From: Escherichia coli
GTDB lineage: Bacteria; Pseudomonadota; Gammaproteobacteria; Enterobacterales; Enterobacteriaceae
NCBI RefSeq assembly: GCF_003991155.1
Contig: NZ_CP031293.1
Length of the DNA: 64,000 nucleotides
Reading direction: 5' to 3' (one strand)
This document shows, in pieces, positions 39,862 to 59,644 of this stretch (positions are counted from its first letter, which is position 1; each line of letters begins with the position of its first letter). Below the pieces are notes generated by a model that saw only the letters and a list, made by a program, of their open reading frames with translations, ran no database searches and was not told the DNA's origin. The translations under genes and the position numbers were made by a program.

Positions 39862-41493
39862 TTAATACTCGTCCCGTCCTTCGTCTTCATCCGGCTGTTC
39901 CAGCACACTGTAAGCCACCGAACAAAACAGCGAGTTCAGACGCTGCATATCTCCCAGTAAGCCTAAATGTAGCGAACTGGTTTCAATGCTTTGCACGTTT
40001 TGCTGATGCAGGCGATCGACGTGAGCATGGGAATAACGGCGATTAAGAATGCGAAAGCGATGCTTGCTGCGGCGCAAACGACGGGCGCTGGTAACATCGC
40101 CAGAGAAGAAAACCGACATTGCCAGTTTTAAATTACTGAGCAATTGCTCATAGAGCGCATCCAGTTCCTTCAAGCCATCAAGCGAAAATGCCCGCCGTGC
40201 TGCCAGCGATTTATCGGCAATTTCGCTCCCCATGCGCTCGACGATATCGGAGGCCTGTTCAAGGTTGAGCGACATTTCGATGATCTCCGCCCAGCGGCGC
40301 GACTCTTCCTCCGCCAGCTCTTCTTTTGGCATCCGCGCCAGATACAGCTTAATGGCGGTATAGAGAACGTTGATATCATCTGCCAGCTTACGCAGCTCTT
40401 TCTCCTGCCGTGGCTCGCCGTGCATCACTTTATTCAGCCCTTCCATCATCTGTTCCATGGCGTCGCCAATGCGCAGGGTTTCGCGCGCGGCGTTCGCCAG
40501 AGCAAGCGTGGGCGTATCCAGCGCGCTGACATCCAGATGTTTGGGTCGTAGCTGGGTATCCAGTTCCGGTTCATCGCGAATAATCGTTTTGCAAAACCGT
40601 GCCATCGGGTCAACAAATGGCAGCATGACCAGGCAGCGTACAAGGTTGTAGAAGACGTGGAAATAGATCACCAGTTCCGCTTTTGGCAGTGGCAACTTCC
40701 CCATTGTCTCTGCCAGCAAATGGACAAACGGCAGGATAATCAGGCTACCCACCAGCTTAAACAGCAGGCTACCCAGCGCGACACGGCGGGCTGCGGCATT
40801 GGCGGCACTGTTGTTGAGCATCGCCAGCAGACCGGAACCGAGGTTAGCACCAATCACCAGACAGAGCGCCACGGGGAAGGAGATAATGCCTGCGGCGGTC
40901 AGAGTCGCGGTCAGCAGTACAGCAGCAAGGCTGGAGTAGCTGATAATGGCGAACATCGCGCCAATCAGCGCATCCAGCAGAATATCGCCGGTCAGCGAGG
41001 CAAAGATCACCTGAACGCCGTTTGCCTGGGTGATCGGCGTTACGGCCTGCACAATCAACTCCAGCGCCAGCAAAATCAGCCCAAGACCAATACCGACGCG
41101 GCCCAGTTGCCCGGCGCGTGACTGTTTGCGTCCGAGGAAAAAAATCACGCCGATAAAAATAAGTAACGGTGACAGCCAGGATAAGTCGAAGGTGAGAATA
41201 CGCGCCATTAGCGCCGTCCCGACATCTGCACCCAGCACAATCACCAGAGCCGGTGCGAGGGCTACCAGATCCTGAGCGACAAACGAGGTCACCAGCATGG
41301 TGGTGGCATTACTGCTCTGCACCAGTGCGGTAACGCCTATCCCCGCGCAAAAGGCGAGCGGCTTCTTTTCGACGCTTCGGCTAAGAACAGTACGCAGACG
41401 CGCGCCGAAGACGCGCATTACGCCGGTTCGAACAATATGAGTCCCCCAGACCAGCAGGGCGACGGCAGAAAGCAGGTGAAGCAAAGTTAGCAC
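39862..41493 (-). CDS. yjbB: Na+/phosphate symporter family protein YjbB
   Basis: 543-aa polytopic ORF MLTLLHLLSAVALLVWGTHIVRTGVMRVFG... with C-terminal PhoU-like region. Confidence 0.93.
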   Translation of the reverse strand: MLTLLHLLSAVALLVWGTHIVRTGVMRVFGARLRTVLSRSVEKKPLAFCAGIGVTALVQSSNATTMLVTSFVAQDLVALAPALVIVLGADVGTALMARILTFDLSWLSPLLIFIGVIFFLGRKQSRAGQLGRVGIGLGLILLALELIVQAVTPITQANGVQVIFASLTGDILLDALIGAMFAIISYSSLAAVLLTATLTAAGIISFPVALCLVIGANLGSGLLAMLNNSAANAAARRVALGSLLFKLVGSLIILPFVHLLAETMGKLPLPKAELVIYFHVFYNLVRCLVMLPFVDPMARFCKTIIRDEPELDTQLRPKHLDVSALDTPTLALANAARETLRIGDAMEQMMEGLNKVMHGEPRQEKELRKLADDINVLYTAIKLYLARMPKEELAEEESRRWAEIIEMSLNLEQASDIVERMGSEIADKSLAARRAFSLDGLKELDALYEQLLSNLKLAMSVFFSGDVTSARRLRRSKHRFRILNRRYSHAHVDRLHQQNVQSIETSSLHLGLLGDMQRLNSLFCSVAYSVLEQPDEDEGRDEY

Positions 41494-41663
41494 GGAATCA
41501 GGTTCTCCTTTTTGTTATGCATTTTCCTGTTAAGATTTTTCTAATCACGTTATTTTTATCCAGGCATTTCTCTTGTATGTACTTTCAGTATAAGAGATTT
41601 ATACAAGAAAGCATTTAAAAAGGCATTTATATAAAAATCCACCTGTATCTGTTGCTATTTCTG

Positions 41664-42113
41664 TCACACTTTCCCCTGTCGTTTACACCAGATAATCGTT
41701 GTCACTTTTGTGACCTCTGAGAAGATAAACAACGAAATATTTAAGACCAGATCCTGTGAATGAAAATAATTAAGTAACAACGGTATTACGGAGATTGAAC
41801 AGCTTACGGTAGCAAAACGCATAAACTCCTGAATCGCCAAAAAAGAGAAACTAAATAATTCTTGTCTTAAAAAACATTGCGCAGAAAAGAATAAAGAGAA
41901 CAATAATACTATTTGTAGCGTAACAGTGGCGACTGCATAAGCGTAAAAACCGCCTTCAACACCGATATCCTTAAGTAAAGAAAGTGAATGAACGATATCG
42001 GAATAAAAAGGGATACGACCATTACCAAGCGAGTAGAACAAATATGTGGCTATCGCGATAACATCCATGACACCCCAAAAAAGAAGAATGTATTTTTTAT
42101 ATTGACGTTGCAT
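41664..42113 (-). CDS. Hypothetical small membrane protein (about 4 predicted TM helices), AT-rich
   Basis: 149-aa ORF in a ~30% GC islet; hydrophobic segments; no family recognised. Confidence 0.5.
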   Translation of the reverse strand: MQRQYKKYILLFWGVMDVIAIATYLFYSLGNGRIPFYSDIVHSLSLLKDIGVEGGFYAYAVATVTLQIVLLFSLFFSAQCFLRQELFSFSFLAIQEFMRFATVSCSISVIPLLLNYFHSQDLVLNISLFIFSEVTKVTTIIWCKRQGKV

Positions 42114-42155
42114 AAAGTAAATCCTTTTTACGAAAACAAATATTACCAGGAATTA

Positions 42156-42482
42156 TTATAATTGCGGGCGTTTTTGGATTAACACTCCACCCGTATTTTT
42201 AAAAATCCTGTCAGCCATACCTTCACTAAACAAGACATCGATACGCCCTTTACTTTTATCGTGATACAGAATACTGCATGAGATACACCTTATACCCTCT
42301 TTGGATTTACGAAAATCTAACCAAAAACGACCATCATAAAAGACCCACTCCACACCTGTTTTTATATTAATTATCCAATCATTATAACCTGTTGGTTTTT
42401 TTCCTAATAGTTCAGTAACTTCGGACTCTGAACATCCTTCGAAAGCAAAAAAATCTATTTCATCGATTTTTATCATGTTCAA
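42156..42482 (-). CDS. Hypothetical small soluble protein (108 aa), AT-rich
   Basis: 108-aa ORF immediately upstream (same strand) of the membrane ORF; atypical codon usage. Confidence 0.5.
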   Translation of the reverse strand: MNMIKIDEIDFFAFEGCSESEVTELLGKKPTGYNDWIINIKTGVEWVFYDGRFWLDFRKSKEGIRCISCSILYHDKSKGRIDVLFSEGMADRIFKNTGGVLIQKRPQL

Positions 42483-42535
42483 TAATCCATTATTTATGAC
42501 ATTAAAAACCGGGGCAAATACCCCGGTGTTATCAC

Positions 42536-46219
<3,684 letters not shown>

Positions 46220-46418
46220 ACTTGCTCCCGACACGCTCAACCCAGATTTAATAAAAATTCAACAAACCATACTGGCATAAACGCATCTGTGGTAAAAGCA
46301 ACCACTACCCAACATGAGATTTGTTCAACATTAACTCATCGGATCAGTTCAGCAACTATTGCATTAGCTAACAATAAAAATGAAAATGATTTCCACGATA
46401 CAGAAAAAGGAGACTGTC

Positions 46419-47243
46419 ATGGTCGCACCCATTCCCGCGAAACGCGGCAGAAAACCCGCCGTTGCCACCGCACCAGCGACTGGGCAGGTTCAGTCTTTAA
46501 CGCGTGGCCTGAAATTACTGGAGTGGATTGCCGAATCCAATGGCAGTGTGGCACTCACGGAGCTGGCGCAACAAGCTGGGTTACCCAATTCCACGACCCA
46601 CCGCCTGCTAACCACGATGCAACAGCAGGGTTTCGTGCGTCAGGTTGGCGAACTGGGACACTGGGCAATCGGCGCACATGCCTTTATGGTCGGCAGCAGC
46701 TTTCTCCAGAGCCGTAATTTGTTAGCAATTGTTCACCCTATCCTGCGCAATCTAATGGAAGAGTCTGGCGAAACGGTCAATATGGCGGTGCTTGATCAAA
46801 GCGATCATGAAGCGATTATTATCGACCAGGTACAGTGTACCCACCTGATGCGAATGTCCGCGCCTATCGGCGGTAAATTACCTATGCACGCTTCCGGTGC
46901 GGGTAAAGCCTTTTTAGCCCAACTGAGCGAAGAACAGGTGACGAAGCTGCTGCACCGCAAAGGGTTACATGCCTATACCCACGCAACGCTGGTGTCTCCT
47001 GTGCATTTAAAAGAAGATCTCGCCCAAACGCGCAAACGGGGTTATTCATTTGACGATGAGGAACATGCGCTGGGGCTACGTTGCCTTGCAGCGTGTATTT
47101 TCGATGAGCACCGTGAACCGTTTGCCGCAATTTCTATTTCCGGACCGATTTCACGTATTACCGATGACCGCGTGACCGAGTTTGGCGCGATGGTGATTAA
47201 AGCGGCGAAGGAAGTGACGCTGGCGTACGGTGGAATGCGCTGA
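46419..47243 (+). CDS. iclR: Glyoxylate shunt repressor IclR
   Basis: Translation from MVAPIPAKRGRKPAVATAPATGQVQSLTRGLKLLEWIAES (274 aa). Confidence 0.95.
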   Translation: MVAPIPAKRGRKPAVATAPATGQVQSLTRGLKLLEWIAESNGSVALTELAQQAGLPNSTTHRLLTTMQQQGFVRQVGELGHWAIGAHAFMVGSSFLQSRNLLAIVHPILRNLMEESGETVNMAVLDQSDHEAIIIDQVQCTHLMRMSAPIGGKLPMHASGAGKAFLAQLSEEQVTKLLHRKGLHAYTHATLVSPVHLKEDLAQTRKRGYSFDDEEHALGLRCLAACIFDEHREPFAAISISGPISRITDDRVTEFGAMVIKAAKEVTLAYGGMR

Positions 47244-47259
47244 CTTTTTCGCCTCTGAT

Positions 47260-48984
<1,725 letters not shown>

Positions 48985-52371: not shown

Positions 52372-53301
52372 TTAATCCAGCGTTGGATTCATGTGCCGTA
52401 GATCGTATGGCGTGATCTGGTAGACGTAATAGTTGAGCCAGTTGGTAAACAGCAAATTACCGTGACTACGCCAGCTCGCTCGCGGTTTGTTTTGCGGATC
52501 ATTGTGCGGGAAATAGTTATACGGTACTTCCGGGTCTAGTCCGGCTTCCACATCGCGGAAATATTCCTGCGCCAGCGTTTGCGCATCATATTCGGGATGG
52601 CCCGTCACAAAGGCAATGCGCTTATCTTTGCTGGCAAACAGATATGCATCCCCTTCTTCCGTCTCTGCCAGAATTTCCAGATCGGTGTAATCACGAATCA
52701 ACGCTGCCGGAAAGTCAGCATAGCGCGAATGCGGTGCCAGGAATGAATCATCAAAGCCACGCGTCAGAAGCGCATGAGGATGGAGAATATGATGCTCGTA
52801 AACGCCAGAGAGTTTGTCGGTGCGAGTTTGCTTAGGAATGCCGTAGAGGATATTTAGCGCGGCCTGTACCGCCCAGCAGACAAACAGCGTCGAGGTGACG
52901 TGATCTTTCGACCACTCCAGCACCTGTTTGATCTGCGGCCAGTAAGCGACATCATTAAACTCCACCAGGCCCAGCGGCGCGCCGGTAACTATCAGACCGT
53001 CAAAGTTTTGTTCCTGAATATCTTCAAAGTTACAGTAGAAGTTATTCAGATGCTCTGCGGGCGTGTTGCGCGATTCACGGGAATCAATGCGCAACAGCTG
53101 AATATCGACCTGCAAAGGTGAGTTTGAAAGCAGGCGCAGAAACTGATTTTCAGTTTCGATCTTCTTCGGCATCAGGTTAAGGATAAGTACCTTTAGCGGA
53201 CGAATTTCCTGACCAGACGCACGAGAAGTTGTCATCACAAAGACGTTTTCTTCACGCAAGAAATTGACGGCGGGTAGCTCGTCCGGCACACGAATCGGCA
53301 T
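52372..53301 (-). CDS. metA: Homoserine O-succinyltransferase
   Basis: 309-aa [48 protein letters not shown]... Confidence 0.97.
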
Positions 53302-53457
53302 AACCTGATTACCTCACTACATACGCTTATACGTTTAGACATCCAGATAGCTGAAGATAACCAGAAAATTTGCCAATGTCGAGTCTGCATGTTGAAGGTG
53401 AGAAAGTTTCAAGGAAAAGGCTACGTTAGAATATAAGAATGACGAAAAGGAGAGAAA

Positions 53458-53901
53458 ATGGTTATTAGTATTCGCCGCTCACGGCATGAGGAAGGGGAGG
53501 AACTCGTTGCGATTTGGTGTCGTTCTGTCGATGCCACTCACGATTTTTTATCAGCAGAGTATCGGGCCGAGCTGGAGGAGCTAGTTCGTTCCTTCTTGCC
53601 GGAAGCGCCGTTGTGGGTCGCGGTTAATGAGCGGGATCGGCTGGTTGGGTTTATGTTGTTAAGTGGGCAGCATATGGATGCGCTTTTTGTCGATCCTGAT
53701 GCGCGCGGTTGTGGCGTGGGCCGGATGCTGGTGGAACATGCGCTCTCGATGGCACCGGAACTGACAACCAATGTTAATGAGCAAAATAAGCAGGCTGTTG
53801 GGTTCTATAAGAAGATGGGTTTTAAGGTTACGGGACGCTCTGAGGTGGACGATTTGGGGAAACCGTATCCATTGCTGAATCTGGCATATGTGGGGGAATA
53901 A
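53458..53901 (+). CDS. yjaB: GNAT-family N-acetyltransferase YjaB
   Basis: 147-aa ORF with GNAT motif (RGCGVGRMLVEHAL...GFYKKMGF). Confidence 0.9.
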   Translation: MVISIRRSRHEEGEELVAIWCRSVDATHDFLSAEYRAELEELVRSFLPEAPLWVAVNERDRLVGFMLLSGQHMDALFVDPDARGCGVGRMLVEHALSMAPELTTNVNEQNKQAVGFYKKMGFKVTGRSEVDDLGKPYPLLNLAYVGE

Positions 53902-53981
53902 GCTGCCCCCTATCGTGCTATCGTGCCTGCGTAAGCTGGAGCAGACGCGCCAGCGTCGCAGCCGGCCGTTTTCTGCACCAG

Positions 53982-54012
53982 CGCAAAAAGGCCATCCTGA
54001 CGGATGGCCTTC
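53982..54012 (-). terminator. rrnE operon terminator hairpin
   Basis: On minus strand AGGCCATCCGTCAGGATGGCC followed by TTTTTGCGC, immediately 3' of 5S rRNA. Confidence 0.6.
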
Positions 54013-54023
54013 TGCTAAATTTG

Positions 54024-54143
54024 ATGCCTGGCAGTTCCCTACTCTCGCATGGGGAGACCCCACACTACCATCGGCGCTACGGCGTTTCACTTCTGAGTTC
54101 GGCATGGGGTCAGGTGGGACCACCGCGCTAAGGCCGCCAGGCA
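54024..54143 (-). rRNA. rrfE: 5S ribosomal RNA
   Basis: Reverse complement matches E. coli 5S rRNA (TGCCTGGCGGC...AACTGCCAGGCAT), 120 nt. Confidence 0.97.
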
Positions 54144-54235
54144 AATTCTGTTTATCAGACCGCTTCTGCGTTCTGATTTAATCTGTATCAGGCTGAAAAT
54201 CTTCTCTCAATCCGCCAAAACACCTTCGGCGTTGT

Positions 54236-57141
<2,906 letters not shown>

Positions 57142-57325
57142 TCACAACCCGAAGATGTTTCACTTCAGAGTTGCGAAAATTTGAGAGACTCACGAACAAC
57201 TTTCGTTGTTCAGTGTTTCAATTTTCAGCTTGATCCAGATTTTTAAAGAGCAAATATCTCAAACATCACCCGAAGATGAGTTTTGAGATATTAAGGCAGG
57301 TGACTTTCACTCACAAACCAGCAAG

Positions 57326-57401
57326 TGGCGTCCCCTAGGGGATTCGAACCCCTGTTACCGCCGTGAAAGGGCGGTGTCCTGGGCCTCTAGACGAAGGGGA
57401 C
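57326..57401 (-). tRNA. gltV: tRNA-Glu in the 16S-23S spacer
   Basis: Reverse complement GTCCCCTTCGTCTAGAGGCCCAGGACACCGCCCTTTCACGGCGGTAACAGGGGTTCGAATCCCCTAGGGGACGCCA (76 nt). Confidence 0.97.
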
Positions 57402-57486
57402 GTATCAGTCTGCTTCGCAAGACGCCTTGCTTTTCACTTTCTATCAGACAATCTGTGTGAGCACTGCAAAGTACGCTTCTTTAAGG

Positions 57487-59028
<1,542 letters not shown>

Positions 59029-59199
59029 AAAAGTTTGATGCTCAAAGAATTAAACTTCGTAATGAATTACGTGTTCACTCTTGAGACTTGGTATTCATTT
59101 TTCGTCTTGCGACGTTAAGAATCCGTATCTTCGAGTGCCCACACAGATTGTCTGATAAATTGTTAAAGAGCAGTTGCGACGCGGCTTTCAGCTCACTGT

Positions 59200-59420
59200 C
59201 GCGAGGTGGCGTATATTACGCTTTCCTCTTTCAGAGTCAACCCTGAATTTCAGGATTTTTCTCTTCAACCGAACCGGCTGTTTGTGTGAAGTGATTCACA
59301 TCCGCCGTGTCGATGGAGGCGCATTATAGGGAGTTCTCCGCAGGCCGCAATAGAAAAATTGCAGAAAAATGACTGACTGCTGCATTCCCCAGCAAAACCC
59401 CGCTTTATACCTTTTTACGC
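59200..59420 (-). promoter_or_regulatory. rrn operon tandem promoters P2 (TTGACT-16-TAATAT, 59213-59240) and P1 (TTGCGG-16-TATAAT, 59323-59350) with upstream AT-rich UP/FIS region
   Basis: Hexamers read on the minus strand; spacing 16 bp; GC-rich discriminator after the P1 -10. Confidence 0.7.
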
Positions 59421-59521
59421 ACAGAGTTATCCACAATCATCAATGTAATTTCTGTATTTTTCCCACGGTAAACACTGTCAAAATTGTGATCACCATTGAA
59501 AGAGAAAAATTCGCGAGCGTT

Positions 59522-59537
59522 GCGCAAACGTTTTCGT
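59522..59537. promoter_or_regulatory. PurR operator (PUR box) upstream of purHD
   Basis: GCGCAAACGTTTTCGT matches the PurR consensus aCGCAAACGTTTtCgT; about 110 bp upstream of the purH ATG. Confidence 0.7.
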
Positions 59538-59644
59538 TACAATGCGGGCGAAAAATAAGGATGCCCCGTTAGGGGCGTTAGCTGAGTTTTTCGCGAAAAA
59601 TTCAGCTAACGCTCTCTGTAATAGTCAAATCCAGGGGATTTACC

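What the first reader, a model, noticed from the sequence alone, without database searches (positions are those of the whole stretch)
41494..42535. AT-rich ~1 kb islet with two small ORFs (soluble 108 aa plus 4-TM 149 aa) inserted between yjbB and metH
The yjbB-metH gap is far more AT-rich (roughly 30% GC by eye) than flanking core genes and holds two co-directional ORFs with atypical codon usage and no recognisable family. As I recall K-12, yjbB and metH are separated by only a short spacer, so this looks like a horizontally acquired micro-island. Small membrane plus small soluble protein pairs of this kind are often orphan immunity genes or toxin/immunity-like modules; that reading is speculative.
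Basis: partly seen in the sequence, partly recalled or inferred. Interest (0 to 1): 0.55.

Follow-up and report, generated by a model that had tools for sequence, protein, structure and literature searches.

The report
Old AT-rich two-gene cassette, T6SS-linked
The AT-rich kilobase between metH and yjbB is real and holds two genuine genes, but it is an old resident of this spot that most E. coli have lost; its membrane protein belongs to an undescribed family that elsewhere sits next to lipase toxins fired by bacterial type VI secretion systems.

Summary
Window 41494-42535 is 30-37% GC against 55-60% in the flanks. It holds two co-directional minus-strand genes: A (106 aa, soluble) and B (149 aa, 4 TM). 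Neither matches Pfam, NCBIfam, PADLOC, PHROGs or PDB.

The "recently acquired micro-island" reading is largely not supported.
- The cassette is single-copy at this one locus in 1131 of 5426 complete E. coli genomes. These include phylogroup B2 and F reference strains.
- It is also at this locus in E. fergusonii (A+B), E. whittamii (B only), Citrobacter amalonaticus (B only) and two unidentified enterobacteria (A+B; A only).
- The K-12-type 219-bp spacer is homologous to the spacer that follows gene B in Citrobacter. It therefore looks like a cassette-less allele, not an empty insertion site.
- There are no mobility genes, flanking repeats, or plasmid or phage copies.

B belongs to a widespread uncharacterised family. 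In Pseudomonas, Rahnella, Burkholderia and other loci, B lies downstream of vgrG. Wherever the next gene is in view, it is a class-3-lipase (Tle2-type) T6SS effector, followed by lipoprotein immunity genes. One locus keeps B and the immunity gene beside a truncated lipase.

My best reading (about 0.4) is that B is an orphan, immunity-like membrane factor against such lipases. A's role is unknown. No function has been tested.

The parts
42508..42527 (-). Intrinsic terminator of metH (8-bp G+C-rich stem followed by a T run), immediately after the metH stop codon
   Evidence: Terminator scan; sequence read
42489..42517 (-). Sigma-70-like promoter match (TTGCCC-17-AATAAT) overlapping the metH terminator, just upstream of gene A; a consensus match only
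   Evidence: Five such matches were found in the region against 3.5 expected, so this is weak evidence
42156..42476 (-). Gene A: 106-aa soluble, cytoplasmic-type protein with no signal peptide. Motifs are FEGCSE and RCIxC. An alternative TTG start lies at 42482.
   Evidence: ORF list and RefSeq CDS. Homologs at 41-46% identity lie in the same metH-yjbB slot. dN/dS is 0.25 against E. fergusonii. The AF2 model has pLDDT 71: two helices plus an antiparallel sheet, with no informative fold match.
41664..42113 (-). Gene B: 149-aa inner-membrane protein with 4 TM helices, N-in/C-in. The conserved GRIPFYSD loop is predicted to face the periplasm. Polar residues S132, E133 and K136 are invariant in TM4. 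An AGGA Shine-Dalgarno lies 8 nt upstream of the ATG, and the gene starts 42 bp after the stop codon of A.
   Evidence: It scores 172 bits against the family HMM. dN/dS is 0.13-0.14 against E. whittamii.
41494..41663 (-). AT-rich B-yjbB spacer, which contains the yjbB 5' region. It holds a short element (41582-41612, ...CTTATACTGAAAG) that is also present upstream of yjbB in K-12-type E. coli and in Citrobacter. It lacks the hairpin found in those alleles.
   Evidence: Local alignments with shuffle controls. It is 96% identical to the E. fergusonii spacer.

Best explanation
The segment is an old chromosomal two-gene cassette, not a recent insertion. It occupied the metH-yjbB slot before E. coli diversified. 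It is kept in phylogroups that include B2 and F reference strains, and in E. fergusonii and E. whittamii. The other E. coli carry an allele that has only the post-cassette spacer.

Gene B encodes a member of a widespread, undescribed family of 4-TM inner-membrane proteins. In T6SS loci this gene lies downstream of vgrG. Wherever the next gene is in view, it is a class-3-lipase (Tle2-type) effector gene.

Inferred mechanism (not shown): B sits in the inner membrane with its conserved loop facing the periplasm, where such lipases act. There it blunts damage from the lipase, either by binding it or by acting on membrane lipid through its conserved intramembrane Ser/Glu/Lys/Arg residues. On this reading the Escherichia copy is an orphan protective gene against lipases fired by competitors.

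Gene A is a separate, taxonomically narrow cytoplasmic protein of unknown role. It travels with B in this slot but has no T6SS linkage.
For: Shown:
- Single copy at one locus in 1131 of 5426 genomes, at 96.8-100% identity. Carriers include CFT073, EC958 and E2348/69 (B2) and IAI39 and CE10 (F). The window itself lacks arpA and yjaA.
- Same slot in E. fergusonii with A+B, E. whittamii with B, C. amalonaticus with B, L011 with A+B and L007 with A.
- dS of A and B is of the same order as that of the flanking genes, and dN/dS is below 0.35.
- The K-12-type spacer aligns with the spacer after gene B in Citrobacter and L011 (scores 83 and 64, against about 17 for shuffles).
- B-family contexts: vgrG-B-Lipase_3-lipoprotein(s)-PAAR in P. 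frederiksbergensis, P. huanghezhanensis, L020 and Rahnella (followed by tssM except at the vgrG island L013), and B-Lipase_3 four genes downstream of vgrG in P. mohnii; vgrG-B at a contig end in Burkholderia.
- L022 keeps an intact B and an intact lipoprotein on either side of a lipase remnant that retains only residues 496-647.
- The downstream lipoproteins form one family with lipoboxes.
- This lipase type was found in only 7 of 5426 E. coli genomes, so the resident B has no detectable partner lipase.
- Topology and invariant residues.

Inferred: the protective role itself.
Against: - No experiment bears on function.
- B lies upstream of the effector, which is the usual place for adaptors or chaperones. 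A canonical lipoprotein immunity gene is already present in every locus where the region downstream of the lipase is in view.
- Related lipase loci in E. coli C5 and 33F4 lack B altogether, so B is not required for self-immunity there.
- Stand-alone B genes in Klebsiella (pgm-kdpE) and Citrobacter have host-like GC and look like ordinary core genes.
- Only about ten independent contexts were sampled.
- The 35% GC of the Escherichia cassette and its unrelated B-yjbB spacer leave room for an old xenologous replacement rather than strict vertical descent.
Confidence: 0.4

Rival explanations
1. B is a general small inner-membrane protein, for example in lipid or envelope homeostasis, whose primary role is unrelated to T6SS. 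T6SS lipase loci recruited copies secondarily. On this reading the Escherichia cassette is simply a dispensable accessory membrane gene.
For: - Stand-alone copies sit in conserved core slots at host-like GC in K. pneumoniae (pgm-kdpE) and Citrobacter.
- Invariant intramembrane polar residues (S, E, K, R, Q) look more like an active or binding site than a passive plug.
- Some lipase loci lack B.
Against: Seven of about ten sampled independent contexts are T6SS loci, and in six of them B directly precedes a Lipase_3 gene or its remnant. The gene is dispensable in about 79% of E. coli.
Confidence: 0.25
2. B is an accessory or adaptor factor that loads or activates the lipase effector on VgrG. The Escherichia, Citrobacter and Klebsiella copies would then be relics left after loss of the T6SS island.
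For: The position between vgrG and the effector matches that of DUF4123, DUF1795 and DUF2169 adaptors. In P. aeruginosa PAK, DUF4123 lies immediately downstream of vgrG7 in the Tle2 island (PMC9846239). The vgrG stop and B start overlap in L019.
Against: - B is an integral 4-TM protein.
- Orphan copies are under purifying selection (dN/dS 0.13-0.35) in genomes with no detectable lipase.
- In L022, B stays intact while the lipase is truncated.
- No vgrG or T6SS remnant lies near metH-yjbB.
Confidence: 0.15
3. One reading: a recently acquired horizontal micro-island carrying an orphan immunity or toxin/antitoxin-like pair, inserted into a K-12-like spacer.
For: 35% GC and GC3 of 0.28-0.36. Absent from about 79% of E. 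coli. One homolog of A lies at the end of a prophage in another enterobacterium.
Against: - Same slot across Escherichia species and Citrobacter.
- No repeats, integrase, tRNA, plasmid or phage copies.
- The K-12-type spacer corresponds to the post-cassette spacer.
- No TA or defence family hit.
Confidence: 0.1
4. A and B together form a novel two-gene phage-defence or abortive-infection module, with a soluble sensor and a membrane effector.
For: The gene pair is conserved in order and spacing in Escherichia and L011. It is AT-rich and variably present. A small soluble protein plus a TM protein is an architecture seen in some defence systems.
Against: No PADLOC hit. A and B occur separately in several lineages. 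B's other contexts are T6SS loci, not defence islands. A is absent from all T6SS loci examined.
Confidence: 0.05

Closest known systems
Orphan T6SS immunity genes (immunity genes kept without their effector, sometimes beside 3' effector remnants)
   Same: B stands alone in genomes that lack the associated lipase. In L022, B and the lipoprotein immunity gene flank a 3' remnant of the lipase. B diverges quickly between genera (about 40% identity, where the flanking DNA is 82-88% identical) but is under purifying selection within lineages.
   Different: Immunity activity is untested. B lies upstream of the effector rather than downstream. A separate lipoprotein immunity gene exists in every locus where the region downstream of the lipase is in view. 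The Escherichia copy is not in an immunity array or near any T6SS gene.
Tli2-type lipoprotein immunity proteins of Tle2 (class-3 lipase) effectors (P. aeruginosa PAK Tli2a/b, PMC9846239)
   Same: Encoded in the same type of locus and presumed to act at the periplasmic face.
   Different: Tli2-like proteins are 236-298-aa lipoproteins with a lipobox (PMC9846239). B is a 140-160-aa polytopic membrane protein with no signal peptide and no sequence similarity to them.
T6SS adaptors and chaperones encoded between vgrG and the effector gene (DUF4123 Tap/Tec, DUF1795 Eag, DUF2169; PMC11582642, PMC13373197)
   Same: B occupies the same gene position, downstream of vgrG and directly upstream of the effector gene.
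   Different: Those adaptors are soluble cytoplasmic proteins. B matches no Pfam family, has four TM helices, and persists without a vgrG or effector gene.
Four-TM immunity proteins of pore-forming colicins and pyocins (colicin A-type, Cai)
   Same: Small four-helix inner-membrane proteins that protect against a membrane-acting toxin.
   Different: No sequence or profile similarity. The linked toxin here is a lipase, not a pore-former.
PA0261, immunity to the VgrG2b C-terminal toxin domain (PMC6899460)
   Same: A small gene directly after vgrG and before a Tle gene.
   Different: Analogy by position only, with no homology tested or found. In P. mohnii, B is separated from vgrG by four genes but still abuts the lipase gene.

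Membership tests
Horizontally acquired genomic islet | Composition deviating from the host genome | tested here: met
   GC 0.30-0.375 against 0.55-0.60; GC3 0.28-0.36 against 0.63-0.66
Horizontally acquired genomic islet | Mobility signatures: integrase or transposase, flanking direct repeats, tRNA or att site, or copies on plasmids or phages | tested here: not met
   Only chance-level short repeats. No Rfam hit. No true plasmid hit; the single hit in the plasmid collection is a 4.9-Mb chromosome-sized record. No match in the phage or viral-contig collections.
Horizontally acquired genomic islet | Sporadic distribution with an intact empty site in relatives | tested here: not met
   Present at the same locus in every carrier genome, including B2 and F reference strains, and in E. 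fergusonii, E. whittamii and Citrobacter. The 'empty' allele is homologous to the post-cassette spacer of Citrobacter.
B family (uncharacterised 4-TM proteins of Tle2-type T6SS loci; defined here) | Full-length match to the family profile with the invariant residues (FWG, D39, S73, Q95, R99, S106, S132-E133, K136) | tested here: met
   172 bits, E = 1e-51, against the HMM built from alignment A4. The window protein is itself one of the 25 sequences in A4.
B family (uncharacterised 4-TM proteins of Tle2-type T6SS loci; defined here) | Located downstream of vgrG and directly upstream of a Lipase_3 effector gene | tested here: not met
   The window copy lies between metH and yjbB with no T6SS gene nearby. 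It is a stand-alone member, like the Citrobacter and Klebsiella copies.
T6SS immunity protein | Neutralises a cognate effector (protection in competition or co-expression assays) | not testable with these tools
   Only genomic association is available
T6SS immunity protein | Encoded immediately downstream of its effector | tested here: not met
   B is upstream of the lipase gene in all five intact loci. The downstream position is taken by lipoproteins.
T6SS adaptor (DUF4123 / DUF1795 / DUF2169) | Match to the corresponding Pfam domain; a soluble protein | tested here: not met
   No Pfam match even at E <= 10. Four TM helices.
Toxin-antitoxin or known anti-phage defence system | Match to a known TA or defence protein family | tested here: not met
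   No hits in PADLOC, NCBIfam or Pfam, and none below E = 0.08 in PHROGs

The most novel reading that the evidence does not exclude
B defines a new class of T6SS-associated inner-membrane protein that acts as a second, membrane-embedded line of protection against Tle2-type phospholipase effectors, alongside the classical lipoprotein immunity. Stand-alone copies fixed in E. coli lineages that include B2 and F strains, in E. fergusonii, Citrobacter and K. pneumoniae would then give these gut bacteria standing resistance to lipase attack by competitors.
Probability: 0.3. Interest if true: 0.65.

Novelty: new variant of a known kind. Interest (0 to 1): 0.45.

Why it matters
The cassette is one of the small differences that separate the E. 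coli lineages containing the B2 and F reference strains (many of them extraintestinal pathogens) from K-12-like strains. Both genes are annotated only as hypothetical. Linking the membrane protein to T6SS lipase loci gives the first testable idea of its role: resistance to contact-dependent lipase attack in the gut. It also flags an uncharacterised gene that sits in the vgrG-effector gap of many Pseudomonas, Rahnella and Burkholderia T6SS clusters, and which some records mislabel 'arginine:ornithine antiporter'. Finally, the locus is a cautionary case. Low GC plus presence/absence polymorphism suggested a recent insertion, but comparative data point to an old resident that was lost in most strains.

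Tried and rejected
- **Family and structure searches.** Both proteins gave nothing usable in NCBIfam, PADLOC, PHROGs, Pfam or PDB sequences.
- **Fold search for B.** Foldseek returned only uncharacterised relatives, plus loosely named DoxX/DUF2127/DUF2569 four-helix proteins.
- **Spurious hits for A.** The exhaustive protein search returned two repeat-protein hits (P0040, P0041) that I treat as spurious.
- **Genome scan with alignment A1.** A3/A5-style alignments were used instead.
- **Metagenome scan for A.** It added only E. coli contigs and one contig at 1x coverage, probably chimeric (L026).
- **Literature.** A search with guessed locus tags returned irrelevant papers. Searches for a small membrane protein at Tle loci found no description of B.
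- **PA0261-like idea.** I considered B as immunity to a VgrG C-terminal toxin. I set this aside because B stays next to the lipase, not vgrG, in P. mohnii.
- **Non-coding ORFs.** Rejected on cross-genus conservation and dN/dS.
- **RNA elements.** No Rfam match.

Full report
**What is there.** The gap between yjbB (minus strand, 39862-41493) and metH (minus strand, 42536-46240) is 1042 bp. Its GC content is 0.30-0.375 in 200-bp windows, against 0.55-0.60 on either side. It holds two minus-strand ORFs that run in the same direction as both neighbours.
- A is at 42156-42476: 106 aa from the ATG that RefSeq uses, or 108 aa from a TTG at 42482.
- B is at 41664-42113: 149 aa.
- The window is 100% identical here to E. 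coli 2016C-3878, where both are annotated as hypothetical proteins.
- GC3 is 0.28 for A and 0.36 for B, against 0.66 and 0.63 for metH and yjbB.
- The metH terminator hairpin lies at 42508-42527. A weak promoter-like match overlaps it.
- B has a good AGGA ribosome-binding site and starts 42 bp after the stop codon of A.
- There are no flanking repeats and no Rfam match.

**Are the ORFs genes?** Yes.
- A has homologs at 41-46% identity and B at 40% identity in other enterobacteria, in the same order.
- Against E. whittamii, B has dN/dS of 0.13-0.14 at dS of about 0.6.
- Against E. fergusonii, A and B have dN/dS of 0.25 and 0.35.
- In every E. coli row displayed (more than 100 genomes), both genes are annotated as intact.

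**Distribution and origin.** The islet occurs once, always at this locus, in 1131 of 5426 complete E. coli genomes, at 96.8-100% identity.
- Carriers at 98.0-98.6% identity include CFT073, EC958, E2348/69 and F11. I know these to be phylogroup B2.
- The group at 99% identity or more includes IAI39 and CE10, which I know to be phylogroup F.
- The window itself lacks arpA (aceK abuts iclR) and yjaA, which fits phylogroup F.
- Nothing similar exists on true plasmids or phages or in viral contigs.

The same metH-yjbB slot is occupied in other taxa:

| Taxon or contig | Occupant |
|---|---|
| E. fergusonii | A+B, 93.5-95% DNA identity |
| E. whittamii | B only; a REP-like element where A would be |
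| Citrobacter amalonaticus | B only; 50% GC |
| L011 (unidentified, Citrobacter-like) | A+B; 49-53% GC |
| L007 (unidentified enterobacterium) | A only |

The remaining E. coli carry a 219-bp spacer in place of the islet, not a simple empty site. That spacer is clearly homologous to the spacer lying immediately downstream of gene B in Citrobacter and in L011, including a terminator-like hairpin. Alignment scores are 83 and 64, against about 17 for shuffled sequence. The K-12-type allele therefore looks like a Citrobacter-like arrangement with the cassette removed.

The islet allele keeps the cassette but has a different, AT-rich B-yjbB spacer. It shares only a short CTTATACTG-type element with the others.

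The most economical reading is that the cassette is ancestral to this slot and was lost, or swapped out by recombination, on the way to most E. coli lineages. The low GC of the Escherichia version and its unrelated spacer leave room for an old xenologous replacement. Nothing points to a recent insertion.

**Gene B.** The protein has four TM helices with positive residues at both ends (N-in, C-in). This places the most conserved motif, GRIPFYSD, in the first periplasmic loop.

A profile search found 62 proteins that extend the family into Citrobacter, Pseudomonas, Burkholderia and metagenomes. Foldseek added uncharacterised relatives in Yersinia, Enterobacter, Klebsiella, Kosakonia and Pasteurella. 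Across 25 diverse members, the invariant residues are F12, W13, G14, D39, S73, Q95, R99, S106, S132, E133 and K136. Several of these are polar residues inside TM helices.

The genomic contexts are the key result.
- In P. frederiksbergensis, P. huanghezhanensis, an unnamed assembly (L020/L021) and Rahnella aquatilis megaplasmids, the order is vgrG, B, a 654-696-aa protein with a class-3 lipase domain (PF01764, E = 3e-17), one to three paralogous lipoproteins of 236-282 aa, and PAAR, followed by tssM where the locus is part of a T6SS cluster. The P. frederiksbergensis locus (L013) is a vgrG island with no tssM in view.
- In P. mohnii, four other genes separate vgrG from B, but B still directly precedes the lipase gene, which is followed by four lipoprotein paralogs.
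- In a Burkholderia T6SS cluster, B follows vgrG at a contig end.
- The literature assigns class-3-lipase T6SS effectors to Tle2, with lipoprotein Tli2 immunity and, in P. aeruginosa PAK and V. cholerae, a DUF4123 adaptor (PMC9846239).
- In L022, an intact B and an intact lipoprotein (61% identical to the L020 lipoprotein) flank a remnant of the lipase gene. The remnant retains only residues 496-647. This is the pattern of an orphan protective module.
- Related lipase loci in E. coli C5 and 33F4 have vgrG-lipase-lipoprotein-PAAR with no B in any reading frame.
- K. pneumoniae carries a stand-alone B-family gene between pgm and kdpE at host-like GC. RefSeq names it 'arginine:ornithine antiporter'.
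- This lipase type was detected in only 7 of 5426 E. coli genomes. The B gene of the islet-carrying strains therefore has no detectable resident partner, within the limits of a DNA-level search.

**Gene A.** A is a cytoplasmic-type protein with conserved FEGCSE and RCIxC motifs. The AF2 model has pLDDT 71 (two helices packed on an antiparallel sheet) and no informative structural neighbour.

The family is very narrow: Escherichia, the two unidentified enterobacteria in the same slot, and one copy about 800 bp beyond the baseplate genes of a prophage next to dapA in another enterobacterium. An HMM of A finds nothing in any of the T6SS loci fetched. A and B occur apart in several lineages, so an obligate two-component system is unlikely.

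**Mechanism.**

Shown:
- B is an inner-membrane protein under purifying selection.
- It belongs to a family preferentially encoded beside Tle2-type lipase effector and immunity genes.
- It persists in genomes without such a lipase.

Inferred: B protects the membrane against incoming class-3 lipase effectors. It could do so by binding them through its periplasmic loop, or by acting on membrane lipid through its conserved intramembrane polar residues.

Arguments against this inference:
- B occupies the adaptor-like upstream position.
- A lipoprotein immunity gene is present in every locus where the region downstream of the lipase is in view.
- Some lipase loci lack B.
- The Klebsiella and Citrobacter copies look like housekeeping genes.

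I put the immunity-like reading at about 0.4.

**Comparison with known systems.** No paper found in the library describes this family.
- It resembles orphan T6SS immunity genes in distribution and in the L022 remnant structure.
- It resembles adaptors in gene position.
- It resembles colicin A-type immunity proteins in size and topology.
- It fails the sequence-based membership test for each family that could be tested.

It is best described as an uncharacterised family associated with a known kind of system.

**Verdict.** The 'recent horizontal micro-island' interpretation is not supported. The speculative 'orphan immunity-like' idea gains indirect support for the membrane protein only. Interest is moderate: a lineage-marking E. 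coli cassette gets a testable hypothesis, and a recurrent unannotated gene in T6SS lipase loci is flagged. Function remains inferred from gene context alone.

Noticed in passing
window 46380-48984 and about 53300-59600 (see L030): The window strain lacks arpA (aceK directly abuts iclR) and lacks yjaA (the 5S rRNA gene is followed directly by yjaB). Its islet allele is at least 99.6% identical to those of IAI39 and CE10. All of this points to phylogroup F.
   Followed up: partly
window 42536-42685 (3' end of metH): The last 150 nt of metH differ by 9-10% between the window, CFT073 and a K-12-type strain, against mostly 0-6% in the next 1.3 kb. This suggests a recombination breakpoint or an old polymorphism at the cassette junction.
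   Followed up: partly
L002 1195-1413 (K-12-type spacer) against L014 8454-8742 and L011 1046-1246: The short K-12-type metH-yjbB spacer, hairpin included, is homologous to the spacer that follows gene B in Citrobacter-like genomes. The 'empty' allele is therefore a cassette-less derivative.
   Followed up: yes
L032 7001-7438 (K. pneumoniae, between pgm and kdpE): This is a full-length B-family member (118 bits) at host-like GC. RefSeq annotates it as 'arginine:ornithine antiporter' (WP_004152228.1), which is almost certainly a misnomer for a 145-aa four-TM protein.
   Followed up: partly
L022 7001-8700: An orphan module lies downstream of a Tle1/DUF2931 locus: an intact B, then a 3' remnant of the class-3 lipase gene (residues 496-647 only), then an intact Tli2-like lipoprotein.
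   Followed up: yes
L012 5712-5970 (E. whittamii): Gene A is missing. A REP-like palindromic element (GCCGGATGCGCTACGCTTATCAAGCCTA) occupies its place, while B is intact.
   Followed up: partly
L010 5583-8327: A 42%-identical homolog of A stands alone about 800 bp past the last baseplate gene of a prophage, next to dapA, in another enterobacterium. This is a typical cargo position at a prophage end.
   Followed up: partly
E. coli strains E07 (NZ_CM143880.1) and S8 (NZ_CP107126.1), metH-yjbB region: An IS1A copy is inserted within the islet in these strains. Both small genes are still annotated.
   Followed up: no
L017 10571-13660 (P. mohnii) and L019 9649-11986: Three to four tandem paralogs of the putative Tli2 lipoprotein follow the lipase gene. 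This is an immunity-gene expansion.
   Followed up: no
L026 1-640: In a human-gut contig at 1x coverage, AT-rich DNA with two small ORFs, unrelated to metH, lies upstream of the cassette. This is probably an assembly chimera.
   Followed up: no
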